A stretch of DNA of 61,143 nt, the filler included, from Hausera hauseri (taxonomy: Eukaryota): NCBI GenBank assembly GCA_046269625.1. It is 12 parts of 12 records of this genome, joined end to end, with 100 filler letters (N's around TTAATTAATTAA, not from the genome) between each part and the next. Parts side by side here need not be neighbours in the genome. Positions count along the whole stretch, not along the records: positions 29,509 to 35,221 come from JBJURY010200637.1; 11 more parts are not named here. One strand, 5' to 3'. Position numbers and translations under genes: made by a program. The notes under the pieces were generated by a model that was not told where the DNA came from, did no database searches, and saw only the letters and a list, made by a program, of their open reading frames with translations. This document shows positions 9,554 through 50,900 of this stretch, one piece after another; the stretch's first letter is position 1, and every line of letters starts with the position of its first letter.

Positions 9554-10245
9554 NNNNNNNNNNNNNNNNNNNNNNNNNNNNNNNNNNNNNNNNNNNNTTA
9601 ATTAATTAANNNNNNNNNNNNNNNNNNNNNNNNNNNNNNNNNNNNNNNNNNNNCTTACGCTTATTAAAAAATAGTCACAAAACTCCCCTTATATTTCGCG
9701 GCATTCGGATTTGGATATTTTCTACAAGGTAATTTTGGTGCTTTCATACAGTTCAAATTTTGAAATTTTTTACAATATTTTTCAAATTTTATTCAATAAT
9801 CCTTGTATTTCCTTTTTATGCTGTTTTTGTACACAGCCGCGTTATCACTTTTATAACTTTATTTTACGTGCCAGAACATTTTGATTTAATAACGTTAAAA
9901 GACAATAATGAGATAAATGCCANNNNNNNNNNAAAGGAACTTCCAAATCTTATCGACGATTTGTTTCCTTCGGGATTGACTGACCATGTGAAACTTACGA
10001 TCACAACTGAGAGTTCTTCAATGCCCAAGTATGCAATGTCGAACAAATAAAGGTAAGATTATTAGAGAAATTTAAACCACCGAGAAATCTAGGGCGACTG
10101 TTCAAATATGACAAAAATTATTCTCATTTAAAAGTCAGAATGTTATTTCATAAATTTTTCAAACGACGCAAGAATGAATTTATTTCAAAGTTATCACCCG
10201 TTGATAATAATTTTATTGTTTATCATGCTTTAGTAAAAAGTCAAT

Positions 10246-10760
10246 ATTATTGATGACGCACGTCGTTTCAAATATAAGCCAGGTAAAACTTTTGAAGGAT
10301 TGAAAACGTCCGATTTAAGACTCCTAGTTCTACTCATAGGCTCACCACCTCACAATAACGCACAAGAATTATCTAATCTGTCAAATTTTTGGAACTTTTG
10401 AAGTTTTTCTTAGAATCAGATTTTTTAATGACATACGTAGATTTAAGAAGTGAAGAGCAAGTTGCCAGTCTGAAGTTACTGTTGAAACTCATGATGTTGC
10501 GTCGTTCGGAAAATGTTGAGAAGAGTTTGGCTCCAAAAGAAATCATTGTTGTAGTAGTACTAACCAATATGCAGAAAACATATCACCGTGCAATACTCGA
10601 AAGAAACTTTTCATTTTCGCCCAAAGGAACTTCCGGTAACAATGTGCCAACTTTAATGAACACCACGCTAGAATTAGAAAAATGTTGTAATCACCCTTTT
10701 CTTATCAAAGACGCCGAAGAAGCAATTCTGCATAATTTGAGAAAGAGTTCTGATAAGGGC
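10246..10760 (+). pseudogene. CHD7: Intronless CHD6-9/kismet-type SNF2 helicase fragment (LTR cargo)
   Basis: IIDDARRFK..., LLIGSPPHNNAQEL, DLRSEEQV...MMLRRSENVEKSLAPKE, YHRAILERNF, LEKCCNHPFLIKDAEEAIL match the CHD7-subfamily ATPase. Frameshift near 10388; the DEAH motif is degenerate. Confidence 0.8.
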
Positions 10761-10785
10761 AATATCACGAAATACTTGCGAAAAA

Positions 10786-10920
10786 TACTGATGAAGAAAC
10801 ATTGCATGCGGGGAACTCGGTCACCCCGAATTTTGGGATTTGCCACAGCGAGGCTGAAGTCTTGGTCGCCCACCCTATACCATTGAGTCGGACGGCACCG
10901 TTCGCTGACGCCCCACGACA
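10786..10920 (+). repeat. Family-A LTR right terminus (motif Y), ends ...CACGACA
   Basis: Near-identical to the reverse complement of 31110-31245. Followed by the family-A leader and gag. Confidence 0.8.
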
Positions 10921-20883: not shown

Positions 20884-23800
20884 TCTTCTCCCTCCTTGGA
20901 TGATGCTGTCCGCAGCATCAAGGGGTAGGCTTCGATAATTCCATTTGAATCTTGATAATCGACGGATTTGATATGGAGTAGTCTTCCTTTCTTCTTAATT
21001 TGTCTCTTTAGGGTAACTGTTTCTGTTTTTGGGATTTTCTTTTTCTTTTTCGGAACTCTGGTTAGGTCAACGACGATTGATTCTGTGGAACTAGCTGCCG
21101 TTATTGGGTTTAGATTAATATAACAGTCTTTTATAGAAGTCAATGCTTGATCACCGGAAGATTGGGTGGATGTCGAGTGGGTGGCAATTGATCGGGTATC
21201 TGGAGATTCTTGTATTTCCATCGGAACTGGGAATTGTTCATTTTTGTATTCCGGAATAAAATTGTAAATTTTTAATATTGTTACTGCTTTCTCTTTTGTT
21301 CTTTGAGGATATATGTTACCATTGTACTGGGTAAAAATCTGTTTGGCCGTGTATGTTCCTTGAGGATTAATACTGTCATGGTATAACAATTCTCTAATTC
21401 CCAATAGATTGTTGTAATCATACCTGAAGGTAGTTGCAAGGGTGTGATAAACATCAATGCCTATGATTACTTTTCCAACGATCATTTTCCTTATGAAGGG
21501 TTCCTCGTGATACGAGTCCTTTTTCCCAATAATATGATCTTCTTTCAGTCCAGTTACGTGGCTGTTATAATTATCAATCTTTTCTCTAGGGCATAAAATT
21601 TCGTCCAAAACAATTCCGCCATCTAGATTCATCAAGGTTACTTCTACCGAAGTCATTTCAGTATTTCTGATAGGGGTGAATAGGTATATAGGATTTACGG
21701 CCATGATTAGCATCTCTTCTTTTAATATTATTGGTTTTCTTGTGAAAGATAGGCCTTGTTTTACGTCGATTTCTTTTGGTTTGGGAGTAGTGTATTTGGG
21801 AATTTCGTAATCCAAATGTGGTATTAGGTCTTTTTTTATAACTTCAAGGTAGATTATTGGGAACACTTCTTGACACGTTCGTATGGTAATTGTAGAATTG
21901 GCGTACAATCTAGGATCCAAACGAATTGTTACACGGGTTAAGACTTCCATCACGTCTGTAATTCCATTGGAGTGTGATTTGCTTTTTAATTGAATAGTCC
22001 CTTTTGCCACGGAGATATATATGGCATAAGTGCGTCCGGAAGTATCAATTAAATCGGAGAGGTTAATTGAACTCTGTCGTACTTTAATTATAAGGCTGCT
22101 CCTTTGCTGGACTGAATAACCTTTGAGATTGTTAGGGATAAAAACGGCTCTTCCATAGTAACAGTAGTCTTTGTTAGAGGTGGCCCATAAATTAGATAGG
22201 ATATGATTGTAAAATGAGTTGGGTCTTTCGGTCCTCTCTGCACCTTCTTGGACTAAAAATAAAAACATTAATGTTAGCCAAGCGGTTTTAGAAGAAGGAA
22301 TATTATCACGTTTTGATTGTTTGTTTTTTATATAGGTCGCTAGGAATTTTGCGGCCTGATTCTGGATTTTTATACAGAGACATACGGTTATGTCTTTTAA
22401 CGGTCGGGTCTGCCGCTCTTGATCGGTAAGTTTTTCAACTTGCCGTTGATTTTCTAAGAAGGGCGCGCTTATGTCTCGTAACGATACCTGGGAATCTTCC
22501 CTTAAAATTTTTAATTGCTCTAATATTTCCCTTGTTCTACTTTGTCGTCGCTTTATTTTAGAAAAGTAAATTACTAAAGGTAAAAGTATAGCTAGTAATA
22601 TTAAAAGGACACATAGTAAACTGATTATCCAAAGATGTTTATTCGAGGTTTGTTCTGGTTTCTGTGTAGTTGTCCTTGGTATAATCCTAGGAGTAGTTAT
22701 TGTCTGTTTTAAAGTCTTCTCTGTACGAAAAACTGTTCGTAACTTTTCTCCTTCGTCATCTAATTCTGTTATGACGACTTTATAATTTGTGTCAGTTTTT
22801 AGGAACATACACGCAGATGTCGGTTCTTCAGGAGTTAGAACTCCTTCACTAATCACTTTATGGTTAAGATGACATTCGAATTTTATGTTTGTATTCTTTA
22901 GGTCAGGCACTGTAATAACTAATGAATGACTTGTTGGTTGGATAATTATATCCAGTTCTTTAATATCCTTCTGGGATTCCATCATTGGAGTAGTTACTAC
23001 TGTTTGTAATGTGGTTGATGTACTTGGTTTTGTTACTGAGGCAGTTGTTTTTCTTGTTGAAGTAGGGGTTACCTTTATCGGAGATCTGACTATTATCTCT
23101 GGACCGTCTGCTGTTTTTGACCATGTATAGCCGTTATACGTGGTCCAGTAATATATCATATACTGTTTATCAAAAGCGATAGGACAACACATATATGGAT
23201 TTCGGTAATTCGGTTTACAATATGTGGTATTAGTGCCATCGGATATTTCATATTGGAATGTTACATACCTCGTGATTTGTACTTCTGGCTCTGCTGTTAT
23301 ACAAGGTCCATTTTTCATAATTTTCGAATAAAATGAGATAAGGAAGTATGGTCGATGGAAATAATGTGTAGTACCAGGGTATGAGAAATATGTTCTATAA
23401 CTCTGGTCGCTTTTTCCTGTTGCGTATTGAATCCTGTACGTTTCTCCGAATGAAAGTCCACAGCAATTATGTATCGAGTGATTATAATATAGATCACAAT
23501 TTTCCGGTGTCGCTTTTTCCACTATAGGTAATTTCGATATGAATATGTGTATATACTCGTCTATTGTTAAGTTCCGATTAGCCGTAATCTTTATACAAGG
23601 GTATTTTCCAACTTGTACGGCCTTGTAATTTACATCTAAGGACTGAGCTGACACGTTAGTCACTAAAATTAGCATCATAAGTGTTATCATTAGCGATGGA
23701 CTAAAGTTTTCATTTCTTATTTTTAACTCTATTGGTGCAGGCTTGCATCTATTCACATGAACTTTTATTGGGTTCATCTTACCTCTTTTATTTTTGTTTA

Positions 23801-25234
23801 AGTAGACGTTGGTTTCGTCTACTTTCTGAATCATGTATGGACCTTTATATGGTCTATCTAGTTTTGGTGTCTTTCCTTTCTTACTTAAGGGTGTGTGCAG
23901 CATGACTTTATCTCCAGGTTTGAAGTCATGTGGCTTAGCCTTTTCGTCGTAACGACTTTTATATTCTTTCTGACATATTTTTGTGTGTCGTGAGGCCAAA
24001 CTCCATACGTATCCTAATTTTTCCTCTAGTAATTCTTTATATTCCAAGTCTTTTAAATGAGATACAGGCGTTTTGAAGTCCAAATCGATCGGCATATGAG
24101 TATCTCTAAGATACATCAGATAGAAGGGAGTTTCTTTTGTTGCCGGGTGGATTGTGTTTCTAATAGCGAATAAGCATGGTTTGATATACTCATCCCAATC
24201 ATCCTGTCTTTCATTTACCATAGTGGCCAACATGTTGGTTAAGATTCCGTTAAATCTTTCCACTGTTCCATTCGTTTGAGGATGATACGGGGTAGTTTTT
24301 AGTTGTAGTATGTGGAATATTTTCGATATTTCTGCCATAACTTCTCCTGTGAAGTTTGGTGCTTGATCCGTCAATAGTTTGGTTGGTGCACCATAATTAA
24401 AAACGATTTCTTCGACGAAAGCTTGAGCGATGGTTTGGGCCTTTTGATCAGGTATTGGTATTACAACTGGCCATCTAGAAAATAGATCGACAAACACTAA
24501 CATGTATTTATTTCCATTAATCGTTAGAGGCAGTGGTCCCAAGATATCCATTGCTGAAAATTCCATAGGGGCTGGTGGACATTCTATTGGTTTGAGAGGG
24601 ACTCTGATTTTTGAACCGGTGTTCTTTCTAGTGGCACAGACTGGACAACTCTTACACCAGTCTTGAACATCTTTAGTCATAGTATACCAGTAGTATTTTC
24701 TTTTCAGTCTTCCTAATGTCCTCTTTACTGATTGATGTCCTCCCATCATACCATCGTGGTATTGCGTCAACAACAATTTAATATCTTCTTGAGGAACGAC
24801 AACAACTAATTTTCCTTTATAATTGTAGTGCAATATGTCATTTTTTGTCTCATAATTTTCAGCAAACTGTTTCAGGTGAGTGTAAAGATTGATATCACTC
24901 GGTACCGTTTTCCTTTTTAAATACTCCTTGATTTCTTTGATTTGTTCGTCATTTTGTTGTTTTCGTAGTAACGACTCTTCTTGTTCTGTGATACTCCATA
25001 TAGCTGCTATGACACCAGGTTTATCTGTAGATTCTTCTTCTGATTGACCTGTATCTTCTGGTATTCGTGACATGTAATCGGCGTTCGCATTTGCTTTCCC
25101 CATTTTATATTCAAATTTAAGATCATACGGTTGGAGTAACATAGCCCATTTCATTAATCGACTATTCGGGTTTTTGTGATTTTTCAGCCACTGTAATGGT
25201 TTGTGATCCGTATAAACAACGATGGGTTTGGTTT
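20868..25234 (-). CDS. Gypsy Pol C-terminus (RNase H end, integrase) fused in frame to a signal peptide, FN3-like repeats, Thr-rich stalk, TM helix and DEDDh-exonuclease-like domain
   Basis: The frame is open to the contig edge (YTDHKPL). Motifs in order: ANANADYMSR; HHCC (YHDGMMGGH...CKSC); DILGP, TDQAPNF, VERFN; GPY; SLMITLMMLILVTNVSA; CGLSFGETYRI/CPIAFDKQYMI/FLKTDTNYKV; LWIISLLCVLLILLAILLPLVIYF; VEVTLMNLDGGIVLDEILCPREKIDNYNSHVTGLKEDHI. Confidence 0.9.
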
Positions 25235-27449
25235 NNNNNNNNNNNNNNNNNNNNNNNNNNNNNNNNNNNNNNNNNNNNTTAATTAATTAANNNNNNNNNN
25301 NNNNNNNNNNNNNNNNNNNNNNNNNNNNNNNNNNCCGTCAAAAGAAAAATATCAATCGAATACCGAGTTGTACGAACGGATTTTTGAACCTTTCGACAGT
25401 TAATTTTACGACGAACTTTCGTGAACAAAGATTATTTTAGAAAGGCCTTGTGTTCATTCATTCTCAAGAAATAAAAAATATGAAGAAAATGTCAAAAACC
25501 CTGAAATTTTAGTTAGAAGCCACCCAGATAATGCAATTGGAGAATTTAAATTTGACAGTTTTTCTCGATTCTCTGGTCTTTTGATACATTTCATTTGTCT
25601 CAATATATATTATCTGTTATATGTATTACTGCGTTGTATCTGGTTAAGTTGTTATTAATTTATTATAGATTATTGGAAAAAAATTTTAAAACAATAAACA
25701 AGTATTCAGCGTATTCAGTTGTTATTTTCTTTTGACACACTATTTATTCTCTATCGGAATTATTCATTGTCTATGGATATTTATCCCATTGTAACTATTG
25801 GAATTTCTGCAAATTTAACACGGTGCCGTCTGTTATACTACAATATGAATAAAGTTGTTATACATGATATCTATCGAACTGTCAAAAACAAAACCTAAAG
25901 ATTCGTTGATTTACCAAAAATCCATGTAGTTCGTGTCGTTGTTGAACCACAAAATATGCCGACGGTTTAAAAAGATTTGCCAAATCATATTCGTCGGTCC
26001 AAACCGACTGGGAAGAGTCAAAAAATAACGGTATAGCTGACGTTGGTGAATCCCAATTAGAAATCTGTTTGAAGGAGAGAGAAGAAGATTGGATGGAGAG
26101 ATGCGACCCACACAGATACTCAGAGTGTCGATGTCGAGTAATCATAATTGATTGATTAAAGGTCGATATCTAATTGAAATGTATAACAGCGAAGTGACTG
26201 TATCGAAGGGATGATGAGTCGTTATTGCTGATATGATAAAAATGTACACTACTCGAAGGAAATTCCAGATAGAATCGTTGTGATCTTTAACAGGGAGACG
26301 GAGACGGTGGACGAGGGGTTTACCAATCATCAGTATTGTAAAGCTACGCTTGAACGAACAGATATATCGATGTAACATTCAGGACCCAGAAATCGTACTT
26401 TGTGGAACTTGCCGTGTATTTGAAAGAACGTAGTTTTACGAATGAACTAGTTAGAATATTCGATGGATGAAAATAAAATTACAGACTTGAAAAATTCTGA
26501 AGGTGAAAATTTAAGCCAGGCACAAAAATTAAAAATGGCAAAATATTCGTAACATTATTCGGACGTTTGATTCTATTGACATAAGGCCAAAACACCACTA
26601 ACACAAATGACAACTTACCACACAGTTTTAAAATGGCCGCCAACACTTCATTGGATACATTTCCTTGAAATTTCACAGCACTTTCTGGATGGGAATATTC
26701 CAGTCCACGGGATCGCATTCGGTTCAGTCTTTGGAACATGACTTTTAGCTGAAATAGTGATAAGTTGTTATGTACATAGAGGATTCATATGACGATCGTG
26801 TACCCAATGAGTAATTATGTTTTAATTTAATTATTAATTTCAATATTAATTATTAGTAGGTAGAAGTGTCCTCTCCTGACCACTACCCAAAATGTGCTCA
26901 GATCAAGCTGGAAATCAGTTTTCCCCACCTATCTGGAAATTCTGAACATTTGATGTCTGATGGTCGGAGACCCCTCCGAGGGAAAGAAGAAGGTCGAGCA
27001 AAGGACTTTGAACCGAGACCAATCGGTCAAGCCGGACAAGGCGAAGAAAAGTTAACAGCGTCACGAAGCCGAAAAGTGCAACCCCGCGGCACAGGAGGCG
27101 GACGAAGAAAAACGGGCAATGTGCAACTGGCAACGCATCACATGTTGCTGGTATACCGAAATTTTGTACAGAGGTAAAATTGATGTTGGCAAGTCGAATG
27201 GACACGGTTTCATCGTCGTGCGACCAAGAAAACATAGGGAAAACCGGTTAGGAAAATTTCCGTCGGGTAAAATTTCCCCATGTTCAAGTCTGTCGGTCTC
27301 ATACATTGCCCATAAGTTGGAGAAAATTTCATATTATAACCGCCTCACGATCAGACCAACGGATCCGGGTGAAAAATGTAATTGAAAAACGCATTGCTAA
27401 AATGTCATCATTTTAAATGCGTTCGTTGTTTGTAGAAAAATTGTGAATT

Positions 27450-29508: not shown

Positions 29509-31109
29509 AGGAAATTTTGTTAAGATTAAAGATAATTAACCATGCCAGAAATGTGCAGCGGTTGACCTGAAGCGGTGTATAAGCGTTTAGTTCTGAATGG
29601 TAAACTTTGTACAGGAAAGGTTTGTGGTAATAAAGAAATTGCTGCACCTGTATCGATGAGGAAATTAACGGATTGCGTTGTAGGAGCGGTGATTGCAGCC
29701 TTTAGGGTAAAAACAGCAAAAGAAGCGTGTCGGCATTCAAAAAGTGACGCAGTGCCTTTGCCAGAGTTTGCCGTGATTTCAGGCGGCAAACTTAGTTATT
29801 TTGGAAAGGTAAACTAAGACGACTATTAAAAGAAAAGATAGCACGTCCGTTGTTCGTATCTGGTTTGACAGTGCAGCCTAGAATGCATTTGCGAGCTTGA
29901 TTTTTAAACTTTGCGTGGTAAATGCAAATTACGGTGTCTGAAACAGCTTTTATTACAAAATTTGCACACTGGGCAGCATTTCTTGGCATTCTTATTGAAT
30001 CTGCTGTGATAGTAGCAGATTGACGACCGCGCAGGAGATGGTAACCGGTTTCTAGATGCGAAATGGGCGCGGTCAGCAACAAAATTTCTTTGCCGGGACA
30101 AGGAAAGCTCGTTTAATTTGATGTTTATATTGTTAATTGTTGCTTGTAGTGCTGTATTTTCGGCACGTAACTGATTTAGTTGTTGCTCTATTGATGCATT
30201 ATTGTTTTGGATACCGATAGTGACAACTGCGGCAGAAACGACTGGTGGGGAATTTAAGTGTTAAACGTCGTGTCTTTTATCGGCTAATTCGGCCAATTCT
30301 TCAAGAGCCGTGAAGTCCTCCACCACGGAAAGTAGAGCCCGAATTTGGATGGGTAATGCGTTGAGAAAGTAGTGACGCAGTAGTTCGGGGTTGTGTTCAT
30401 TAGTGACGCCGAAAGTGTGCAGATGTGTCAAAGACGTGCGTAAAAATTCTGATGGTCGTTATGTGACTATAGCATTGTCGTGGAAGAAGCGTTGTTTGAT
30501 CGTGTCCATTGAGGGTTCTGTGATTTTAAGAACGGCGTTGGAAAGTTGTGAATATGGATCAGGAAGTTCAAATATTTCAAGGATGTTGTGAATTTGTGTT
30601 TCAATATTGTTAGGGAGTAGGAAGAGAAGATTGTGTGCCTTAGTTAAGGAATCGGTGACGTTATTGGCTTGTAGCCACAGTTGGTGGAATTGTAAGCAAG
30701 TTTTGCTGGAGCCTTGGTTGTCAATGAAGAATTCGGTGCAGTGAAGGAAAGGAGCGGAAGAGGTAGTAGCTGAAGGGTTATTAGCGGAAGTAGGGGTGGG
30801 TTTTTGAAGCAGTATTACAGATTTTTGTTTCATGGTGGTTTTATCCGTGGTGTCTATGGTTGGCGATGAGTTCATGCCACCGTGGATACGGAAGTGTATG
30901 GGAGGTGGATATAAGTTAAAGAAGGTTTCAGGGTCCCAACAAGAAATACTGTGGAGCCGTGGTGTGTGAGGTAAAAGTCAGGTGAGCGAAGAAAAGTGGA
31001 GAAGACATTGTAGATAGCCGCATTGTTTAAATGTGTTAATGCAGTTGTGTAAATATGTTTATTATTTAAAAAAGAAAAGGGAATACAGAGAGGTCAGTAG
31101 CCTGGGGCG
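29509..31109 (-). mobile_element. Gypsy family-A internal region copy 2 (leader, gag, protease)
   Basis: Gag MNSSPTIDTTD homologous to the ORF at 11152; SICYYHSRF; protease FLIDTGAAISLLP. Confidence 0.85.
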
Positions 31110-31239
31110 TGTCGTGAGGCGTCAGCGAACGGTGTCGTCCGACCCAATGGCACAGGGTGGGCGGCCGGGACTTCAGCCTCGCCGCGTCAAATCCCAAACT
31201 TCTGGGTGACCGAGTTCCCCGCATACAATGTTTTCTTAT

Positions 31240-32135
31240 CAGTCACTTTCGGATATGATAGAACGAATTTTGTTCTTTTAATTTGTGCAGAATTTGTCAT
31301 TGAATTTTTTAGTACTTCTGGAATATTCTCTTCTTCTCGTTTGCGTTTTAATTCTACGTCTTTCAAAGTTCCCGCTTTTCGCGTTGTTCTCAAGTTTCAA
31401 ACTTTAATTCGCTCACTTTTTACCAATAGCCGACCCAAATGGCTGATAAACTTCGTTGGATGTGTCGTGGAATCCGCGTGGAATTGCCTGGTAAAATGGA
31501 ATTTCATCGCTGTAGTTTATACCAGGTTTCTTCTTGTTGTTTATCGGTTTTTCGATTATTCTCACTTCTGCATATTTACGTTTCTCCTGTACAGCCGCCA
31601 ATCTCCTTGCCATTATCAGCTGCCTTTCTTGTCCTTTACGTTTGGCCTCTTTTTCTTGGATATTTGTCAGCCTAGCACGTGCCCCATTCAACATATCAAT
31701 TTCATCTCTTGCCATGTCAATTGGATCAGGTTTGGCTGGTCCACTCTCTGGTCCGACGTCGGTATCATCTTGCCGTATATTATCTATGTTTGTAGTTCCT
31801 TCTGTATCAGCACGACTTTTATCAATCAATAAATTGTACTGCTGTACGCATTGTGATGCTATACGTCCAATTATATCTGATATAGTTCGCCATTGCATCG
31901 GCAAAACCTTTCCTAAATGTAACAGTTTTTTATTTTTATCTTGCGTCCTTTCGGTCTTTCTCACTGTCGGTGATAACCATTCGTACCATTTGGATTTGCA
32001 CTGCTGTGCTGATTTACGATTTAACAATGGGGTTACTCTGGCCCACTGATTTGTGTCGTATTTTATGATGGTCGATTTAAGAACTTCATCCTCAACATTT
32101 GTCTAAATACCACCCTTCCACAAACGACTCGTATT
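31240..32135 (-). pseudogene. CDC5L: Intronless CDC5L (Myb-repeat splicing factor) N-terminal fragment
   Basis: KGGI*TNVEDEVLK, QWARV, RKSAQQCKSKWYEWLSP, LLHLGKVLPMQWRTI, ESGPAKPDPIDM, ARARLTN, INYSDEIPF, PRGFHDTS, KRTKFVLSYPKVTD. Contains stops and frameshifts. Confidence 0.88.
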
Positions 32136-32199
32136 AGAACCGTTTCTCAGATTAGACGGGGCTTTCTTGGTTGTTGTTTGCACGGAGCAAATAAATTCT

Positions 32200-33090
32200 T
32201 GCCTCTACTTAGCGTTTTTTTGTTGATTTGTATAAACCGATGTCAACAATGCGGCTCTTTGTTAATCCATCAGGCATGTGTGCCTTCCTGCTGTATACCT
32301 CAACATATCTCGGAACCTTACTGGGATCAGCAAAATTGATGCCGATGCATACACCAACGATTACTGAGTCCGGTCGCCGGTTGCTAACGACCATTGCTAC
32401 TGGCTTTTTGCAAACAAATGTGATACTCTGTTCCTGATTGGCCGTGCGACTATTAAGTACATTCTGAGTACAATTTCAACAGCCGATCTTCACTGAATGA
32501 AACGTCGTTCGTCTGTTCACAGTGTTTGCAAAAATTAACGGGAATATGACCACATAATGGATCATAAAGAAAAACGCTATCCTGAGTCTTGTGCTGTTTT
32601 TGTTGACCTTCAATGGTTGTTGTTGGACCATCGGTAATATGTTTAAACACAGGTGTGCGATCAAAACAATGATATAAATATGAATTTCTGAATGAGTCGC
32701 ATAGCAAGCACAACCCATCAGAAGTAGCGACCATAGATACTGTAGCAGTGCGACTACCTCCGTTATTGATTGTGCGCCATGGAAAGATGATAGCATCCGT
32801 AACTTTGGTAAGACTGCCTACCTATATATCGGACATCTCAAGTGATACTGGCCCAGCACCACAGTGACTCTCCGCTACCAGATAGGCAAATCTGTCCGGC
32901 CCAACAGCCAAGCAGAACAGTATGTTGTTGTGTGCGCAAGCGGCCGTCAGTAAACCTGGTTGGGAGGGAACAAATGCCCATCTGGTTAGAGTTAGCGGAG
33001 GGTCGTTACCAGTTGTATCGAGAAAGTAGTTGGTATCGACGTACAGATCATCAACACCCGTTTGCAAAACGGAGCAGAACATGTATCCGT
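32200..33090 (-). pseudogene. UBR4: Intronless internal UBR4 (p600/purity of essence) fragment
   Basis: LTRWAFVPSQPGLL...AVGPD, IPVNFCKHCEQTNDVSF...LLKLY and DSVIVGVCIGI...VPRYVEVYSR...SRIVDI align by eye, in order, with UBR4 LCQWSEV..HPGLV, FPIDFFEH..QLTDVEFGG.DLLQVY and MVMTGMRIQIG...APSYIEIFGR...SRWFDF. Confidence 0.65.
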
Positions 33091-33399
33091 GATTATTATT
33101 AGAATTTTTAAAATTTGAAACGGATGGAAATAACAGCATTACCTTTTTGAAAATATCCATATCCGAGTGCCACAAATTCTTCTGACACCATTTGTTATTC
33201 TTTATGCTGTCGAATAATTTCAATGACCCTTGTATTTGATTTGTTGTCTCGTCCTCGGCCCATTTCTTGAGATGTTCAGTACTTTGTTATTGAAAGCAGT
33301 AGATACTTTGTTATCTTAGTATTATTGATCATAAGTATAAGACTTTGATAAAAAAAATTAGAAATTCGAAAATTCGGAGAAAGCATATAGAAATGGCAA

Positions 33400-34560
33400 A
33401 GAAAGACCAATCAAAATTTTAAAGTTCGTCTGCCGACTCTTTAGTTTCTTTGGCTGAGAAAATTTATTTATGCATGAAATGTTTTTTAGTTAAACGGATG
33501 AAGAAGAGATAGCTTTATCCTCGTTGATTTCTTTCACGGCGTGGAATTAAAAGTATTTAAACTGTATTCATAGTCAGGTGCTATGCTTCTCGACTCCAAG
33601 AATCTATTCCAAGTTATGTCATTCAAAGCAGTTTTTGATGCATATGATACCAAACCACTTGGATCCAATGCATTTTCCTTAATCTTATTTGAAAACTTTA
33701 TTGACCCCTATCTTCAACTGTTGATTGTTCTAATTCTGAAGAAATGAGATCTTTTGTGAAATTCGGATTGACATCATTGTATACTGAATTACGATATTCA
33801 TTTTTGGAGAATTCATTCTCGTCCAAACATTGAACTGTATCTTCTGTTTTATCAGAAAGTAAGAAGCTGTCTTTAAATTCATCTAATTCATTAAGGTCGC
33901 GATCTGAAAATTGGTCATCGGTTTCATCGTCTGCTCCCGTCTGTGATGATGCACCATATGGACTAAACGAACAATTCTTCCGACTTCGATAACTAATGAA
34001 GCTATCAGCGATTTCATCTGAATCCCTTCTATTAACGTCATTTTAGTTTTCTTCAAACGAAATATCATCTTCATCAGTAACAATCCTCTCGTCGTCTTCA
34101 TTATTAACCATTTGACTCGCTGTCAACGATGATGAATGTGAAGTGCATGGCGCTGTAGTATTTTCAAAGCTTTGATTACAAGAATTGCTAATTTCTATCT
34201 CTCCGTGAGGATAACAATTTACAGATTCGATATTATCAATACGGGGAGTACAAAAGTCCTCTAATGTTATGATGGGCTTTTCGGGAAAATCGTCGTCTAA
34301 AACATTTCGAACGACTAGATTAACAACTTCATTCTGCGAATTTAATTCATAGTCTCGATGAGAATATAACTTTGACGTGCTTGATGTGCTGAAAGCCATT
34401 GAGGTATTTGAATGAACCTTTATATGGGATTTGTTAATATCAGTTACTTTTGGCAAAGCAACATTTGAGACCATTCGATGATTAGGGTCAAATCGTAAAA
34501 GGTCGCTAATAAGATTTCGAAACTTTCTGTCGACACGTCGCAATACACCTCGGCATGACC
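33400..34560 (-). pseudogene. Unidentified degraded coding fragment(s) inside the LTR
   Basis: 166-aa ORF 34043-34543 with an acidic/Ser-rich continuation and coding-like composition. No family recognised. Confidence 0.35.
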
Positions 34561-34612
34561 AAATCCTGTTTATCTATATGCCTTCTATATTCACGGATTG
34601 CATTCTTAAAAC

Positions 34613-34712
34613 GAAGAGTCGGACCCGATTATCGATCCGACGCGGCGATAGCGGACGCCCGGCCGTGCCCGACCAAATGGGCCAGAGGACACCGGCCGCG
34701 ATGGGCACCACA
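34613..34712 (-). repeat. Family-A LTR left terminus (motif X)
   Basis: GC-rich ~100-bp motif homologous to 41279-41377 and 50341-50445. Confidence 0.85.
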
Positions 34713-35221
34713 GTATAGACGAATCAAAAAGAAGGGGACGCGGAGATGTAGTGATGGATAAAAGGACACAGGAAAAAGTACGGAAATTTATGAAAACTGA
34801 AAATTTCCAGGAATTATTCTTCAACGGAATGGAGGGAAGTTGGAACGATAAGCAGATCTTCATGCTGGAAGAATTATACGTCGAACAGATGTCATACACG
34901 AAGTTTTTGCTGGACGACCAGGAATCAAATTAAAGATGCAAGACAGACGGGAAGATTGCTTATTGGACACAGGGCTACGGTAAATGTCATAAGCAAGAAG
35001 GTCGTGGATAATCTTGCAAACACACACATAGAGAAATCAGATATCACACTACCATGTGCGCACAATAGCCCCTTAGATTGTCTGGGCACACTCACAACAG
35101 ACGTAGAAATCAAGAGTCTAAAGAGACGCCTGACATTTCTGGTTGTGTCGGATTTACGGCCAGAAATAATAGGTGGAGTGGACCTGCAAAAGGCATTCGG
35201 AATAGAACTGGGATGGAAACG
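34713..35221 (+). mobile_element. Gypsy family-B gag/protease fragment (insertion target)
   Basis: Homologous to the reverse complement of 52300-52805 (CLLDTGLR protease-like site; LRPEIIGGVDLQKAFGIELGWK). Confidence 0.8.
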
Positions 35222-36177: not shown

Positions 36178-38320
36178 CTACATTAATTGTCCTTTTATAT
36201 ATTTCCGTCTGGATGAACTCATGGATCGTTTGTCACAGTCTTCGTAGACTGTAGCAGTCGGAGGTGACATAGTCAATGGTGCTTTAATGACAGAGTACAT
36301 CTTATGTTTGTTTATTCCTGAAAGTACTTCTCCTCCATTAGGCTCGTCATCACCTGAATTATTTCCTCGTATATTAGGTTTTGTAAGTTTCTGCTTTCGC
36401 AAGGATATAGGCCTTCCTTTACGTTTACGATTATAGTAACCGACATGGCGTTCTACGTCCGATTTCCATCTATTTTCTTCGTATGCCTTTAAGAATTTTC
36501 CAAAGGGCGTTCTGATTGCAGTCAGTATCTTACATGAAAATCCAGTCAATGTAAATATTTCATACCCATTTATTACTGCTAGGATGACTGCTTTAATCAT
36601 TTGTATCAGAAAATATATCGCTAAGAAACCGGATGCGGCTTGGCCAAAAATCAAAAATCTTCTCCAAATTTTGTAGAGTATTTCTGTTGTTACTCGCTGA
36701 TAATGGTTTACACCGAGTAACGATTCCCATTTGGCCTGATGTCGTGTATCGTCTACTACGGAAGCCATGGCTCGGTTTAATTCATGTGTTCTTTGTCGCG
36801 GAAAAGCAAGGAATTGTCTAAAGGCTTCGATTTCCTTAGGCCTGTATATGCCTTTTGACGAGGTGTCTTGAAATTCATAGTCCATAATTCCTTTCGCAAG
36901 GTTTATGCCTGTTAATTTATTTGGGGAGGCAGTAATGCCTCCATTTGGCAAACTAACCCCGTCTGTTTTACTACGTCTAAACATGGGCTCTCCTAAGCTT
37001 GCCTCACAATCCTTAAGGATAGTTGGTTGGGTTGCATTATCCAGTAACACTCTCGTCAATGGTGTAGCCAATCTGGGAATATTCTGATAGATGACAGGTA
37101 GTTCCTGAATGCAACGTTTTTCGTCCACGTTAATGGATACATCTCTCTTTTCGCATTTATAGGTCAGCAGTACCTCGCCCGTAACCCGACCGAAAATTCC
37201 CTCTGTTATAGGAATTATTGGAGAAGCCAATTCTGGGTTGGCGTATATAACGGACAGTTTCGTCCTCATGATTTCGGTATCTAATTTTCAGTCGTTAGTT
37301 ATCATTTTGTGATATAATTCAGCTATTCCGACTAGCCTCTTGTAGTAGAAGTAATCGTCTCTGTTTTTCAGATAATCCTCAATTCGGACATCCTGCGTCT
37401 CTAGTTTGTAAGTCTTTGCATTTATTTTCGTTTCTGCGACGAAAAATGCCTCATAGTTAGTAGCGAACATCACTACGTCACAACGAGAGACAATCTCTTT
37501 TTTGATAAATCTTAGTCCATGTTGATCCGAGATCAATATAGTGGATGTAGGATGTTTTGATACGTTCTTGCGTATCCTTGAATTGGTATCCGATTTATTT
37601 ATATAACGTTTTCCGGTAGTTTCATTAAACTTCAGTTCCTTAATTTTAATAAAATTACGGCTTCTTCCAGAAGGTGGTTCCCATATTATAACGGAATTTC
37701 TAAAAGCACAGGTTCCATCTTGTAAGTGGCACTTACAAGATTTTCAGTGTATAACTTAGTGACACTATGAAACATTACTTTCTGTGAATGCATCTCCGAT
37801 TCGTAGAAATCCACTACTACCACATTTGCTTCCAATCCTTTTCCAGTATCGTATTACGCTCCGTAACAATGTCCGTTATGCATGTCTAACCTTCCCGCCA
37901 CTATTTTGTATGCCCTAATTAAATGTCCTTGTTGAATTTCCAATTGCATATTGCCCAGTTGTACTCTTCCAGTTTCCTTAGCCTGTTTGCAGTGCTGGCG
38001 TTCTAGGTTTATTGGAATAAGAAGAGTGGTTGGTTTGATTATTGAGGAATGTCCGTATACTAAACCACAGTGAAAAATTCTACGAGATCGTCTCAGCATA
38101 CATTCCATCTCATCTAGCGATATCAGGTCTTGATGTTGATACAAGAAGTAATTTTTCTCTCTTGTTTCCAACTTGTGCGGTCTGGAATCCTCGCACACTT
38201 CCAGATCCATTAGGGAATGTCTTTGTCCTAGTTTAAACTTATCGCAGTGGTAGACGGTTACAGTGCCTATGTGCTTTATTAGCATCATTAAGGTGAGTAA
38301 GCTAATTAGCCAATTTGATT
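36178..38320 (-). pseudogene. Chuvirus-like (class III-type) envelope glycoprotein, frameshifted
   Basis: Signal WLISLLTLMMLIKHIG; VYHCD...SLMDLEVC; CMLRRSRRIFHCG; CKQAKETG; VAGRLDMHNGHCYG; GEVLLTYKC; CIQELPVIYQN...TPLTRVL; GIYRPKEIEAFRQFLAFP; TM FGQAASGFLAIYFLI...INGY. Confidence 0.8.
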
Positions 38321-39990
38321 TATTTTTCCGGCATCCAACATCCGCCGTTGTCAAATTACGTAACATTTTGTCGAATTTATTACCGGTCCGTCTGTCTTCT
38401 TCCTTGACAAACAGTCTTAACCAATTTACTTCACACGGCAGTCTTCTTGCCACTTTCCGTGCTAGGCTTATAGCCTTATTGATTTTATTCTCTCGATTGG
38501 GGTTTATTTTAATATCTAAGTTTAGTAATACTTTTCTCAATTCCTCATTGATGTTTTCTACCATAATCTTTTCGATTACCGATTCATCGGTTAAGTTACT
38601 TTTCGACAGCTTAAAACGTGAACTTCTCATCATTTTAGCTCCTTCGAAAATTATCTTTTCTTTGTCATCTAATACGTCACCTCGAAGGCTCGAATAATTT
38701 ACGATTCGTATTAAATTCTTCATTAGCTCGCTTAATTCCTCATTGTTTGTACTGTTAGTCGGAATCGATATCTGCCTCAGTTCTCTAATCATTTCCCCAT
38801 TATAGTCAACTTCTTCTCTCGTTTTCTTAGGCCTACCAACTGGGCGTTTCGGCCTTTGGCATTTAGTGGTTAGTTCACTGAATGGTACAAAATTTATATC
38901 GTATTGTTCCTTATCTTTATCTGTTTGTAAATACTCGAAATACATTGCAGCGTCTCGGAATCCCATGATTTGTCCTACGCATTGTCCCGTCTTGGCTTTA
39001 CGTCTGGCCTCTTCTTTTGTCTGTTTGTTAGCTATTATAACTACTATCCGATTTGTTTCGTCGGGGATAATCACGACATCTATTAATTGTTCTAGGTCGT
39101 CAAGTATTCTACCTCTAAAGTAAAACCTAGAATTTAACTCGCCTGTTCCTCCATTATTTAATAACCATTCTCTTACGTCTCTCACATAGAAATAAGTAGT
39201 TAATTTCCATTCTTTTTCAGCCATCCACTGGTATGATATTATTACTTTCATCGCTACCTCAGGTTTAGCCCTCAAGATTTTAGCGTATTTCTTTATCAAA
39301 AGCTTCGGCACCGTGCTATAAATCGTATTCTTACTAGATAAATTAGTTAATATCGGAATAAGTTGTCTTAACTTACTTTAAGTAATGTTTACATTAATTA
39401 GCTCGATTAAATCCGTTTCAATTTGCGCTGAATCCAGTATCATTCCACATTGAATCTCCTGTTCTGCGTGCATGTTTCTGTCTCATTTAGTTGTACTGGA
39501 GTCACGGGGTTTTCGGCAAGCATTGCGTCGAAGTATGCATCCCATACGGGTTCGTTTCCAGCATCTGGAAATCCATATTCTACTGTATTCGTTTTTTCAC
39601 GTTTTCCCTAATTTCTTTTAATCTTCGTTGTATTTCTTTCATCTGCGTGGTTTGGAAGCCTATTCCATTTCTACAGGCATACTGAATAATTATCAGTAAT
39701 TCGCCTAATTCATTAGAATTGATGAATCCCTTTTGGTGATAATCAGTTATTTCGATAATTTTATCTCTTTGCCATCTTTGTACGAATTCTTGCTTGTTTT
39801 TAATTTCTGATTTGGTAAAAGCATATTTGTTTCGGTAGCTTTCGAACTCTTTTGCTAGATCATCTAGTCTCGTTGCTCTTTGTTTTGTTCTGATGCACGT
39901 TTCTTCTACTTGCTGTAATTTGGGAATCAATTGCCTCATCTTTTTGTCATTAATTTCCACCATTTCTACCAATAAGTAGGCGGGATCCAT
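38321..39990 (-). CDS. N-terminal polyprotein region with ubiquitin-like segment and AT-hook
   Basis: VRDVREWL...SRFYFRGRILDDLEQLIDV resembles the Ubl motif RLIFxGKxLxD; RPVGRPKK is an AT-hook. Same ORF (37854-39311) as the start of the glycoprotein. A helical ORF lies upstream at 39580-39990. Confidence 0.5.
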
Positions 39991-40141: not shown

Positions 40142-41270
40142 ATCATCAGTTTCATCCAAATTGCTGAATTTTACAAGAACACCTTTGCAACGATTTAGTT
40201 CATTATTTTTCAATCCGAAAAGTATATTGCCCTCTGTAGAAATGAAGCACATATAACCAATGAAATCCGATTCATTGAGAATTTATTTTGGAATAGTTGA
40301 GTAATTTTGACCGCATTTAATAAAGTTATCTTTGAAGTCAACGGAAGCCATATTATCTGCGTAACTAGGAGGTCCACGTAACATGCTTTTAACAAGCACC
40401 CTTTGGCAATGAGAAAAAATAAAAATTTATACGTTTATGCATATTTAATAAACTGTTAAACAAAACTAAGTGTTGTTCTGCCGTATAAAACATAGCCATC
40501 GGCAATGCAGTATAATTTTTTAACCAGAATTGCATCTAGCACCTAAAGAAAATGTTTGAAACATTTTTACTTCATCGCCAATTCTGACCTGTCGTCGGTG
40601 CACTCTCCATACTTGGTGACCAGAGGTTCAAAGTAAAACAAACTGCCCTTAACCGAGCAAGGTATCCACGGTAAGTTAGAAAACTTAGGAATTAATTGAT
40701 TTCAGAATATTTGAGAGTAGTTTTGTCGACCGTAAACTTGAATAGGATGTTCTGAGAATATAATGTGGTGATCAACTAATTTCTGATTTCAAGCGACGTG
40801 TAGAACATTTTATACCAATTGAGAGCGCTATTTATCACTTGGTTGGAAAACACCAACGATAACGGCAAATCACCAGCCGTTGTTGAAATCAGTTCGCCTT
40901 CACAAAGTTGATGGAAGCCTTTCATGCAGGACATGTCCCCGAAAACACCTTCAAGAATTGGTAGTTCCTCGCAGTCGGATTTAAAAAAGAATTTCACATA
41001 ACTTTTGCAAATCCCTTCCAAAATGTTAAATGCTGCAGTTACTCTCTTAGTTCTGGCAATTAATTCCTTTTTAATATTATCTGCCTTGTTCTGAAACATT
41101 GCTGTTCGAGTAGATGATTGATTATCGCTGTCGGTAAAATGACAAATCGAAACTAACATATATATCCGCTTGAAGAGTGGAAAATATTTCCTTTAAAATC
41201 TTTTTGGTTTTCGTCGTTTTCGTTTCCATCAAAACATCGAAACGACACAAAAATATGCTCACTGAAACCC
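40142..41270 (-). pseudogene. Unidentified degraded coding fragment in the 3' LTR interior
   Basis: ORFs 40776-41159 and 40210-40395 lie on the element's sense strand directly after motif X. No family recognised. Confidence 0.35.
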
Positions 41271-41278
41271 CCGAGGCA

Positions 41279-41377
41279 GAAGATCGGGTCCGCCTACGGG
41301 CCCGACGCGGCTGCAGCGGACGCCCGGCCGTATCCCACCAAATGGGCCAAAGGGCACTGGTCGCCGTGGGCACCACA
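41279..41377 (-). repeat. Family-A 3' LTR start (motif X) preceded by PPT
   Basis: The - strand reads GGGAGGTGA|TGTGGTGCCC just downstream of the family-A pol end. Confidence 0.85.
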
Positions 41378-44300
41378 TCACCTCCCGTGGCAAGGTGAAA
41401 ACTATAAAGATCAAAACAGACGGAAAGAAAAAATCGCTAAGCGGAAAGTGTGTATATCAGTTGGTCTTAATGTGAACAAGACGCTGGGTGCCTTCTACTG
41501 ACTTTTTCCTGCTATACTTGCTAAATGTGACTCTGCGTGTTTTGTCTCTATGCGGTGTGTTTGCTAGCAGAGGTTGAAGTTGGGGAAAAATATTATCGGA
41601 TTTTCTTGTGAGTGTTGTGTCGTGCGAAGATGAGTCAAAATAAGGAGAGGAAGAAGGTGAAGGAGGAAGAGAGATTGTCGAAGACGGATGATTAAAGGTA
41701 TTCAAGAGGGTGTTAGAAGGCGAAGGAATGATGAAAGGTGTAGTAGCGGGTGAAGAAAGAGAGATGAATAGTGGAGTAGAAGTTGGAATTGTATAAGATG
41801 AAAGAGTGGAAGTGGAAGACGAAACAGAGGTAGTGATAAAGAGAGGAAGAGAGATAGGGATAGAAGTAAAGGGAGAAGGAAGTTGTGAAGCGGAAATGAA
41901 AGGAGTAAAAGACGATGTGTAAGGAGAAAGGGAGGTCGAAGGCGCCGAAAATGAGGAAGGTGTGGAAGGAGAAAGAGAGTGAAAGAGAAAAGACGACGAA
42001 GAGGGACAAAGCGAAAAAGAGCAAGAAGATTGAGAAGGCGAAGGAAAGTAGTTGGAAGGTGGTATGAAAAAGGCTGGAATGATGAAAGGGGTAGATGGAG
42101 AAATTGGTGAAGTCGAAGTGGTGTTTGGCGGAGGAGGTCTTGTAAATGGAGAAAACAAGTTGTCATCAGGGGATGGAGGAGCTGTTATAAGGCTTGAAGG
42201 TGCAAAATTGGATGGGCAAAAAAAGGCTTAACTGTCAGAGAAAATTGAAGTAAAAGTCTTGCGAGAAAAGGTAGGGAAAAGTGGACTAAAAGATTGATCA
42301 GAGATGGAAAATGAATTGTTGTGTTGCTGCGCGTAGTCTAAAGATGTTAGTGGAGAAGTGTTTCGACGATAAATGTACCGTCAGTAAAGAAAGCTGGCTT
42401 AGCGTTGTTAATGTGGACTGTTACTTCTTTGTCGTCCTTGAGAATGATGATGTTTCGAGAGTGTAAACAAATTACTTTGTAAGGGCCAACATACTGAAGC
42501 TGAAAACCTCACGGAATCTGATTCTTCAGCCGTACGAACTTGGCAGTATATAAATAGTCCGGTATGTTGGGTTTATTTCCGTGTAATAGTCTACAAAATG
42601 ACTCTTTGCTGATCGCAACGAAGTGTCTCTGGGCCGCTTGTATGGTTTAGTCTGTAAGAATATTGTCGAGCTCAGCCATCACGAATAATGATTTAATAGA
42701 AGTACAAAATAATGCCTCTGCAGGTGAACAGCCTGTAGAAGTAGATGGTGTGTTTCGCCAGCCAAGCAGAACGTACGGAAGGAGTGTAGTCCAACTGCAA
42801 TTAGACTCAGCAAGGATTTTGAGAGGCGTTTTCATCGTTCGGTGAAAGCGTTCGAGAAGGCCATTCGATTGAGGATGATAGGGTGACGTGTGTGTATGGT
42901 TAATTCCAAATCGATTGACAAGAGCTTTAAACAGGTTGGATTCGAACTGTGGGCCTGGGTCCGAAATAATTTGGCGAGGTGATGCAAACCTGCTGATCCA
43001 AGTGCGGATGAAAACGTCTGCGATTGTTTCTGTGTTAATGCTCCGAAGCGGGATAGCCTCTGGCCATCGTGAGGAACGCTGCATCGTTGTGAGGATGAAT
43101 TGATGGCCGTTGTCTAAGGGTAGTGGGCCTACAAGGTCAATGTGAACAGATTCAAAACAAGACGTGCAGGGAAAATGATATAGTGGTGACTTTAAATGCT
43201 TAGTAGCTTTGCATTTTTGGCATGCTACACACTGTCTAACCCATGCCTGCACGTCAGAGCGCATCGACGGCCATACTACTTGGCGTTGTAAGAGTCGAAA
43301 AGCGGCCTTGGCACCGGGATGATGCAACGAATTGATGTTGTTGAATGCTTCTTTTTGAAGCGATTCAGAAAGGATGACTTTAGGATTATTAGGTTTAAAG
43401 GTGTCAAAGGCCACAACGTCGATGGTTTTGCACGATTTAAATTATTTAAGGATGTCAGGAGGTAGCTTATTTTGTTGATGTTTGGATTGAGGGAAGATTG
43501 GTTTAAAGTCAATCGAGCTGACCGATCGGAACAAAAAGTCAGCTACTAAATTGTCGCCTCCGTTTAGGTGCTTAACTTCGTAACTAAATGTGAACAAATA
43601 CGATATTTGCCTGTCCTGACGCAGGGAAGGCGATTTCATGGTGAGAATTTGAAGCAAGGGCTTGTGGTTTGTTTGTATTGTAAAGGTTCGTGCGGTTAGC
43701 AGATGCTTAGAGTGTCTTACGGCAAGGACCATGGCAAGCAACTCTCTGTCAAAGGTGGAATATCTTTGCTCTTGTGCCGTAAATTTTCGAGAAAAGAATT
43801 TTAATGGCTCATGAGATCCATTTTTAAATTGATAGAAAACAGCACCTGCAGCTGTTGTAGATGCATCCGTGGTTAAGAAGAATTCTGCATGGGAGTCGGG
43901 ATAGACCAGGATTTCCACAGTTTTTAGATTGACTTTGAGGTGTACGAAAGCGTTGACTAGCTCTGCGGTTTATTGAATAGGCTGTTTTTTATTGCCAGAG
44001 CTTATTGATGCAAAGGGAGCGATTAGCGAGGAGCAGTGTGGAATATACTTATGAATAAAGTGCAAGGTTCCGGGGAAAGAACGCATCTCTGTTGATGTAC
44101 GTGGTAGCTGTATGTTTTTGAGCTGTGTGATGCGCTGTGGCTGAAATGAATGTCCGGATGAGCTAATAACATTTCATAGGAAGTTGACCTTATGTTATAA
44201 CAAGGAGCATTTGGGGAAATTAATTTGCAAGTTGTTTTGGTGCAAGCACTGGAAGATTAAGCGTAAGTGCTCGGAGTGTTGTTTCGAGGAAGACGATGCA

Positions 44301-50340: not shown

Positions 50341-50445
50341 TGTGGTGCCCACCGCGGCTGGTGCCCTTTGGCCCATTTTGACTGGGTTGGGCCGGGCGTT
50401 CCTTTATCGCCGCGTCGGATTCATAGTTTGGTCAGATTCTCTACC
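50341..50445 (+). repeat. Family-A LTR motif X, third copy
   Basis: TGTGGTGCCCACCGCGGCTGGTGCCCTTTGGCCCATTT...GGCCGGGCG...TCGCCGCGTCGG. Confidence 0.85.
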
Positions 50446-50581
50446 TCTAGAGTTTTACCGGTAGATTAAAAGTCAGAAGACCAGTGGAATTCATAAATAT
50501 CAATGACAGTGCCACAAAGATGCAGAGTGTTTATATCCATTCAAATTTCCACAACAATTTAACGAAAAACCGAGTTTAATT

Positions 50582-50900
50582 AAGGAAATTATTCCCATTA
50601 ACACAGGTTAAGCTGGAGCAAAATTATCCAATGCAGTGTGGAACTATTTCATATCGAATATGGAGTACAAACCAAAGGAACTCTGGACGAACGTTTAAGA
50701 GGTGACGACAGTTATACCTGTAAAGCATTCTGCAGGAAGTCCCGATGAAGAATTACTTCCCGAGAACAATTTCTATTGATTTGGAACCAACCGTTATTGA
50801 TGAAGTTAGAACAAGAAACTACCGAAACTTATGATGCCCAGATCAACATATATTTAATTTTGAAGAAGCTCCAAGAACATTTTACATTAAACGAATGGCT
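50582..50900 (+). pseudogene. Alpha-tubulin N-terminal fragment (LTR cargo)
   Basis: KEIIPINTG*AGAKLSNAVW/ELFHIEYGVQ and FPRTISIDLEPTVIDEVRTRNYRNL; DLEPTVIDEVRT is alpha-tubulin-specific. Not in the ORF track because of stops and frameshifts. Confidence 0.85.

What the first reader, a model, noticed from the sequence alone, without database searches (positions are those of the whole stretch)
31110..34712. 'Pack-LTR' Gypsy family: conserved LTR termini enclosing copy-specific captured host gene fragments
Seen: motif X (TGTGGTGCCC...) follows the PPT at the end of family-A pol (41377). Motif Y (...CACGACA) precedes the family-A leader/gag (10920, 31110). In this contig X and Y bracket 3.6 kb containing an unknown ORF, a UBR4 fragment and a CDC5L fragment, and the TG end of X abuts an unrelated element like an integration junction. 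Other copies carry different interiors: CHD7-like before Y (10246-10760), alpha-tubulin after X (50582-50900) and an unidentified ORF after X (40142-41270). All recognisable cargo is sense to the element and appears intronless. Inference: the LTR interior is repeatedly rebuilt from host mRNAs during reverse transcription, giving an RNA-based analogue of Pack-MULEs located in the LTR itself. I know of gene capture in LTR-element internal regions, but not this systematic form.
Basis: partly seen in the sequence, partly recalled or inferred. Interest (0 to 1): 0.93.

Follow-up and report, generated by a model that had tools for sequence, protein, structure and literature searches.

The report
Retrotransposon ends built from host mRNAs
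In this animal genome, a family of decayed jumping genes has end repeats made of a short fixed cap followed by pieces of the host's own genes (intron-free where we could check) right up to the last base, likely copied in from messenger RNA; the process is known, but not in this place or at this scale in the papers we searched.

Summary
The idea holds but the anatomy was wrong. X is a true LTR start. Y is not the LTR end: in 44 of 44 contigs it runs on into the gag leader. The LTR ends at 33193, before a tRNA-Leu primer site (33190-33179). The 3.6 kb is thus a 1.5-kb LTR, a primer site, a 1.9-kb cargo-filled leader and Y; UBR4-like, CDC5L and CHD pieces lie in the leader.

The LTR does carry host-gene pieces. 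Fourteen delimited LTRs share only a ~120-bp cap. Two solo LTRs (1.9, 2.5 kb) have 5-bp target duplications and empty-site matches. The G-alpha piece lacks both introns of its parent gene, and its codons form the LTR's last bases; 15 copies stop at that base. Pfam hits: 17 of 122 sense ORFs, 1 of 72 antisense. Cargo is inherited by subfamilies, not copy-specific.

Likely mechanism: template switching onto co-packaged mRNAs at both strand transfers. No intact LTR pair was available; the one contig with both ends is damaged and its LTRs differ. The scan noted this family before on other pieces of this genome. New variant of LTR-mediated retroposition.

The parts
34593..34712 (-). Motif X: conserved GC-rich ~120-bp cap, the 5' end of the LTR (likely all of U3)
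   Evidence: 140 copies collected, 57 after the purine tract, 81 after unrelated flank (purine-tract class enriched on purpose); shared similarity between copies ends at median 107, 95th percentile 143; 330 exact purine-tract/X junctions, control 1
33252..34592 (-). LTR interior: unidentified kinase-tail-like acidic coding piece, AT-rich stretch, first codons of a CDK-like kinase (sister copies hold a further ~925 bp: kinase and G-alpha front part, deleted here)
   Evidence: shared at ~91% with purine-tract-preceded and flank-preceded copies; Pkinase and G-alpha hits in sister L092; parent gene not found
33193..33251 (-). Spliced G-alpha mRNA piece that forms the 3' end of the LTR (ends AATAACA)
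   Evidence: parent gene L233 has a 47-nt GT-AG intron that is absent here; 12 of 15 copies end at this base before unrelated flank, 3 before the primer site
33179..33192 (-). AA spacer and 12-nt primer binding site, complementary to the 3' end of tRNA-Leu
   Evidence: 35 exact 21-nt matches genome-wide, control 0; tRNA-Leu(CAG) genes L311, L319 with the matching end
32103..33178 (-). Leader cargo, front part, including the UBR4-like piece (identity weakly supported); a 90-bp deletion relative to sister copies at 32224
   Evidence: shared with L085, L086, L088, L096; PDB BIG E 0.91; deletion
31232..32102 (-). Leader cargo: CDC5L front part, sense, broken, joined to Y at an 11-nt microhomology
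   Evidence: 91.5% over 398 nt to the probable parent L230, which reads on past the joint; 120 matches in the genome
31110..31242 (-). Motif Y: conserved internal leader segment before gag, not an LTR end
   Evidence: 44 of 44 contigs continue into the leader; in L314 it lies ~50 nt behind the primer site with no cargo
29509..31109 (-). Rest of leader, gag and protease of family A, broken by stops and frameshifts
   Evidence: (DUF7041 below cut-off)
34713..35221 (+). Unrelated Gypsy element (family B, protease region) into which the element inserted
   Evidence: 86% to 52303-52808, no link to family A
40142..41395 (-). Purine tract, X and a different, unidentified interior: a 3' LTR of another subfamily
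   Evidence: no Pfam hit
50341..50900 (+). X after unrelated flank, followed by a sense alpha-tubulin piece
   Evidence: LTR end not located
9654..10920 (+). Leader of another subfamily: cargo with a CHD-family piece, then Y
   Evidence: its front part matches the stretch just behind the primer site in L100 and in the finding

Best explanation
This is the 5' part of a decayed Ty3/Gypsy element whose LTR is a fixed ~120-bp cap followed by host-gene pieces up to its last base, and whose leader holds a second block of such pieces; both were likely copied in from host mRNAs by template switching during reverse transcription. Shown: layout cap - cargo - ACA - AA - tRNA-Leu primer site - cargo - Y - gag - pol - purine tract - cap; sense orientation; intron loss for G-alpha; inheritance of cargo by subfamilies; integration of cargo-filled LTRs with 5-bp duplications. 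Inferred: the cap is U3 with the promoter, so the cargo is R-U5 and is copied as minus-strand strong-stop DNA. Right after priming the enzyme moves (or the tRNA primes directly) onto a co-packaged mRNA that reads ACA-AA-TGGT, hops between mRNAs, and lands back just behind the cap; only products with a usable A(C/T)A end integrate. A second sloppy step, the plus-strand transfer, joins a tRNA copy of 11 to ~45 nt to host pieces that the minus strand picked up on leaving Y. Each product founds a subfamily that is copied and eroded further.
For: Real LTR end and primer site. 14 delimited LTRs of 196-2507 bp share the cap and only short patches otherwise. Primer site within 3.5 kb of X in 6 of 14 flank-preceded and 3 of 11 purine-tract-preceded copies with enough sequence, 8 of 500 shuffles. 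12 of 20 multi-copy interior clusters hold both purine-tract-preceded and flank-preceded members, so the interior belongs to both LTR positions. Solo LTRs L200 and L094 with 5-bp duplications (4 of 5 bases each) and an empty-site match. Both G-alpha introns (45, 47 nt) precisely absent, plus a 45-nt GT..AG exon piece missing in the four sister copies aligned. Parent G-alpha reads AACAACA-AA-TGGT exactly where LTR end and primer site meet; CDC5L/Y joint has an 11-nt microhomology. Pfam: 17 of 122 sense ORFs (12 gene families, 9 over cut-off; 7 families inside LTRs) against 1 of 72 antisense, below cut-off. tRNA copies longer than 18 nt joined to unrelated DNA in 12 of 15 loci picked by that motif; one joins to a gag-like stretch, one to Y.
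Against: No contig holds an intact LTR pair. In L186, the only one with both ends, the two LTRs differ beyond the cap, though its purine tract and first LTR bases are deleted. Intron loss is shown for one parent gene only; the CDC5L parent piece has no intron in the shared 398 nt, and parents of the kinase pieces were not found. Most LTR interior sequence has no database match, so part may be UTR, intron or genomic DNA. 57 of 77 interior clusters are single copies and may include truncated LTRs followed by flank. Only 2 of 12 copies with an empty-site candidate could be resolved at both ends. Start of transcription and poly(A) site are untested. An earlier unchecked note reports cargo with introns in this genome (e1-8614884).
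Confidence: 0.78

Rival explanations
1. Read-through transduction: a short-LTR element sitting in a host gene is transcribed past its weak 3' end into the gene, the RNA is spliced, and recombination with a normal element RNA turns that tail into the new R-U5. The cargo next to the cap would then come from the insertion site and not from a free mRNA.
For: Explains the fixed joint at 100-150 bp behind the LTR start, the sense bias and splicing; a 196-bp LTR exists (L127); tandem pol-LTR-primer-site arrays are frequent (3 of 11).
Against: Single LTRs stack several unlinked genes (kinase tail, CDK, G-alpha in L092; Pfam zf-C2HC and MYST hits in L102); it does not by itself give the host-derived end at the primer site or the leader cargo, which still need template switches.
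Confidence: 0.13
2. DNA-level capture: processed pseudogenes or genomic pieces were inserted into or recombined with ordinary LTRs after integration and were then amplified with the element.
For: Nested insertions and deletions are common in these loci; the two LTRs of L186 differ.
Against: 17 to 1 sense bias; the cargo ends exactly at the integration end and primer site; microhomology joints.
Confidence: 0.05
3. One reading: X..Y is one 3.6-kb LTR with conserved ends and copy-specific filling.
For: X and Y are colinear 2.9-4.0 kb apart in six contigs and their ends look like an inverted pair.
Against: 44 of 44 Y contigs run into the leader, also when the query stops at CACGACA; a primer site lies between X and Y in each of the six; X has about four times as many candidates as Y (2363 against 554-677); L314 has primer site - Y - gag.
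Confidence: 0.02
4. Assembly chimeras in a fragmented short-read assembly.
For: 909,086 contigs; no laid contig spans the stretch.
Against: The same joints recur in many contigs at 85-93% identity, with different flanks and target duplications.
Confidence: 0.02

Closest known systems
LTR-mediated retroposition in metazoans (Tan et al. 2016, PMC5131818; abstract and passages read)
   Same: Partial, spliced host mRNAs, multi-gene chimeras, microhomology at joints, further rounds of copying.
   Different: There the retrocopy replaces part of the internal ORFs between intact LTRs. Here the cargo fills the LTR behind a 120-bp cap, supplies the integration end itself, and also fills the leader while gag-pol is retained; there are dozens of interior types in one family.
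Maize Bs1 and LTR-captured genes of rice and sorghum (PMC13317346, passages; PMC3726574, passages)
   Same: Several host-gene segments carried by an LTR element.
   Different: In the passages read the cargo lies between the LTRs.
BARE-2 and Veju: abnormal template switching (review PMC13317346, passage)
   Same: A foreign RNA enters the LTR region by a wrong switch during reverse transcription.
   Different: Single events; in BARE-2 the donor is another retrotransposon, not a host mRNA.
Pack-MULEs and Pack-TIRs (PMC8277862, search listing only; otherwise recalled)
   Same: A family with fixed ends and many different host-gene chimeras.
   Different: DNA transposons that capture genomic DNA with introns; here RNA-based, and only one end is fixed.

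Membership tests
Ty3/Gypsy LTR retrotransposon | gag, then pol in the order protease - RT - RNase H - integrase | tested here: met
   RNase H (43969-43445) precedes integrase (43441-42650) on the coding strand; gag and protease motif precede pol; integrase closest to foamy/Ty3 in PDB and to animal pol proteins. No tree was built.
Ty3/Gypsy LTR retrotransposon | tRNA primer site behind the 5' LTR and purine tract before the 3' LTR | tested here: met
Ty3/Gypsy LTR retrotransposon | TG...CA ends and 4-6-bp target duplication | tested here: met
   Start TG in nearly all copies; of 14 delimited LTRs 8 end in CA, 4 in ATA, 2 otherwise; 5-bp duplications with one mismatch in two solo LTRs
Ty3/Gypsy LTR retrotransposon | two matching LTRs in one element | tested here: inconclusive
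   No intact pair in the contigs fetched; L186 is damaged and its ends differ; indirect support from 12 of 20 mixed clusters
LTR-mediated retrocopy (Tan et al. 2016) | host sequence derives from spliced mRNA, in sense | tested here: met
   G-alpha introns lost (one gene); 17 of 122 sense against 1 of 72 antisense
LTR-mediated retrocopy (Tan et al. 2016) | microsimilarity at the joints | tested here: met
   Two joints traced to parents, both with 9-11 nt of microhomology; no statistical test on so few
LTR-mediated retrocopy (Tan et al. 2016) | retrocopy lies inside, replacing internal ORFs between intact LTRs | tested here: not met
   One block is in the LTR and forms its end; the other is in the leader with gag-pol still present
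Pack-MULE / Pack-TIR | terminal inverted repeats of a DNA transposon around genomic, intron-bearing cargo | tested here: not met
   Ends are an LTR start and a primer-site junction; cargo is spliced
   0 of 44 contigs

The most novel reading that the evidence does not exclude
The family has given up its own R-U5: its tRNA-Leu primer starts on, or jumps at once to, any host mRNA that reads A(C/T)A-AA-TGG, so host codons routinely supply the integrase attachment end, and LTR rebuilding from the transcriptome is a regular part of its life cycle that has multiplied fragments of hundreds of host genes.
Probability: 0.35. Interest if true: 0.88.

Novelty: new variant of a known kind. Interest (0 to 1): 0.7.

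Why it matters
LTR ends are thought to be the most constrained part of a retroelement because integrase and both strand transfers depend on them. Here the 3' end is interchangeable and, in the case traced, made of host codons. The family is a natural record of many strand-transfer errors, a source of large numbers of intron-free gene fragments (120 CDC5L matches) that will mislead gene annotation and copy counts, and a possible source of small RNAs against host genes (untested).

Tried and rejected
Y as LTR end: tested with two queries, rejected; my first notebook entry says 54 of 54, the count of distinct contigs is 44. Intact LTR pair: looked for in about 100 fetched contigs, none. Parents of the acidic piece and of the CDK piece: only further cargo copies found. 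UBR4 identity: no hit by homologue search, Atlas, representatives or two of three PDB searches. Expression: no RNA holder listed; the one run laid is contigs and covers all 30 bins. Folding: X z -1.9, Y z +1.3, no claim made. Loose TSD candidates L117 and L185 lack a primer-site partner or empty site and were not counted. Literature: nine searches found no report of host mRNA pieces filling LTRs family-wide; 'Pack-LTR' gave 0 papers; most subscription papers are not in the library and no supplements were read. The host group (earlier notes say flatworm) was not tested.

Full report
Setting. The window is a pack of 12 separate stretches from an 869-Mb, 909,086-contig genome. The finding lies on the minus strand of one stretch (C200637). 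The cargo genes (G-alpha, CHD, NUP210, MYST, CDC5L) fit an animal; the group was not tested. All element copies seen are decayed: X copies are a median 85% identical to the window copy, and gag-pol carries stops and frameshifts.

X is an LTR start. Of 105 copies in the first collection 27 follow the purine tract at the end of pol and 75 follow unrelated DNA, with a sharp edge at TG. After adding purine-tract loci on purpose the set was 140 (57 and 81, two unclassed). The exact purine-tract/X junction occurs 330 times, control 1.

Y is not an LTR end. I searched with Y plus 30 bases of leader and with Y cut at CACGACA. All 44 distinct contigs fetched continue into the family's leader; three leave it at three different points 50-150 nt further on. 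X has 2363 first-look candidates, Y 554-677. In L314 Y lies about 50 nt behind the primer site and is followed by gag. Y is an internal leader segment.

The real LTR end. Every X..Y interval contains AA plus a primer site; in the window it is 33190-33179. The full 18-nt form occurs 35 times, control 0, and two tRNA-Leu(CAG) genes carry the matching end. The window LTR is therefore 34712-33193 (1520 bp). Sister copies confirm the end: of 15 copies with this G-alpha-derived end, 12 pass into unrelated DNA at the same base and 3 into the primer site. A primer site lies within 3.5 kb of X in 6 of 14 flank-preceded and 3 of 11 purine-tract-preceded copies with at least 2.6 kb of sequence, against 8 of 500 shuffles; the second class are tandem elements sharing an LTR.

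The LTR is a cap plus variable filling. Fourteen LTRs could be delimited, 196 bp and 1448-2507 bp long; they share the first ~120 bp (56-66% GC) and otherwise (32-35% GC) mostly short patches. Among 114 copies with enough sequence, positions 135-435 fall into 77 clusters; 20 have several members and 12 of those include both purine-tract-preceded and flank-preceded copies. So the filling is part of the LTR at both positions and is inherited by subfamilies; 77 is an upper bound, since single copies may be truncated. The 41 primer-like sites collected have 33 different upstream ends, 21 ending CA and 17 TA; not all are shown to belong to this family. Two solo LTRs, L200 (1874 bp) and L094 (2507 bp), have 5-bp duplications with one mismatch each, and the joined flanks match an uninterrupted repeat in the window at 82-83% (2 of 12 copies with an empty-site candidate).

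The filling is host mRNA where it can be traced. Stop-free ORFs of at least 52 codons from 21 LTR and leader intervals were scanned: 17 of 122 sense ORFs hit Pfam, 1 of 72 antisense, below its cut-off. Inside LTRs: G-alpha, protein kinase, phosphodiesterase, MYST, and weaker tyrosine phosphatase, C2HC finger and LAIKA hits. In leaders: CDC5L, CHD/SNF2, NUP210, PRP8, Ufd2 core. An intact G-alpha gene (L233) was found by family search. Its 45-nt and 47-nt GT-AG introns are precisely absent from the cargo; the window copy spans the second junction. A 45-nt exon piece bounded by GT and AG is also missing in the four sister copies aligned, as expected from cryptic splicing or a short-homology deletion. 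The parent reads AACAACA-AA-TGGT exactly where LTR end, spacer and primer site lie, so the integration end is made of host codons. The probable CDC5L parent (L230) is 91.5% identical over 398 nt and reads on where the cargo joins Y; an 11-nt stretch is shared by parent and Y there. CDC5L gives 120 matches in the genome, many ending at that residue. UBR4 remains weakly supported. The window LTR lacks ~925 bp present in sisters, lost between short repeats.

How it likely works. Established retroelement biology (my knowledge): the tRNA-primed minus strand copies U5 and R, jumps to the RNA 3' end, and the plus strand later jumps by way of the primer-site copy. Inferred here: the cap is U3, so all filling is R-U5. 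A switch onto a co-packaged mRNA at the very start of synthesis, or direct priming on it, replaces U5 up to the end; more switches stack genes; the landing behind the cap gives the fixed joint; integrase selects usable ends. Leader cargo would come from the minus strand leaving Y for an mRNA, followed by a plus-strand jump on short homology. In line with this, primer sites are 11-12 nt in many elements and run to ~45 nt of tRNA copy, joined to unrelated DNA, in 12 of 15 loci picked by that motif. Read-through transduction is the main rival for the cap-side joint.

Against. No intact LTR pair was found. L186 has both ends but they differ behind the cap (79% in the cap), and its purine tract and first LTR bases are deleted, so it may be a recombinant. 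Intron loss rests on one gene, microhomology on two joints. Most filling is unidentified. Expression is untested.

Comparison. Tan et al. 2016 (PMC5131818; abstract and passages) describe the same process in animals, but with retrocopies replacing internal ORFs between intact LTRs. A 2026 review (PMC13317346; passages) lists Bs1, Veju and BARE-2, the last with retrotransposon sequence switched into an LTR. Passages of PMC3726574 and PMC8672886 concern genes between LTRs. Nine searches found no family-wide capture inside LTRs; supplements and subscription papers were not seen. Earlier unchecked notes of this scan describe what appears to be the same family on other pieces of this genome; they are not independent support, and none matched this LTR by sequence.

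Verdict. Observation partly confirmed, interpretation partly supported with corrected anatomy; a new variant of LTR-mediated retroposition; interest 0.70.

Noticed in passing
window 20868-25235 (-): A 1454-codon open frame with RNase H and integrase followed by about 1100 further codons without a clear Pfam match: an unusually long extension behind a Gypsy integrase.
   Followed up: no
window 36178-39377 (-): Two frames with Monjiviricetes-type viral fusion glycoprotein matches (E 6e-34 and 5e-11), interrupted by stops: an env-like or endogenous viral piece.
   Followed up: no
window 4488-9553: A whole stretch of degenerate tandem repeat with a 30/90-bp period.
   Followed up: no
window 49679-53837: Family-B Gypsy sequence present as an inverted pair (49681-50254 and 51914-52483) around the X-tubulin insertion.
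   Followed up: no
window 17062-17580 (-) and 3573-4214 (+): A protein-kinase fragment and a weak PLAC8-like ORF outside any X or Y context.
   Followed up: no
L085:4291-7914, L100, L173, L323, L355: Tandem elements sharing one LTR (pol - purine tract - LTR - primer site) are frequent in this family.
   Followed up: partly
L315:986-1090: Two tRNA-Leu 3' copies in inverted arrangement about 85 bp apart.
   Followed up: no
window 31227 / 34622, run X1: One laid contig joins the start of Y to the end of X with 14 letters between, i.e. a form without cargo or primer site.
   Followed up: no
L058 / L226 (C131240): Y plus 50 nt is followed by a primer-like site and leader cargo: the element's own leader seems to have been used as an LTR end once.
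   Followed up: partly
L138: Purine tract followed by 118 bp unlike X and then a full primer site: an LTR slot without the cap.
   Followed up: no
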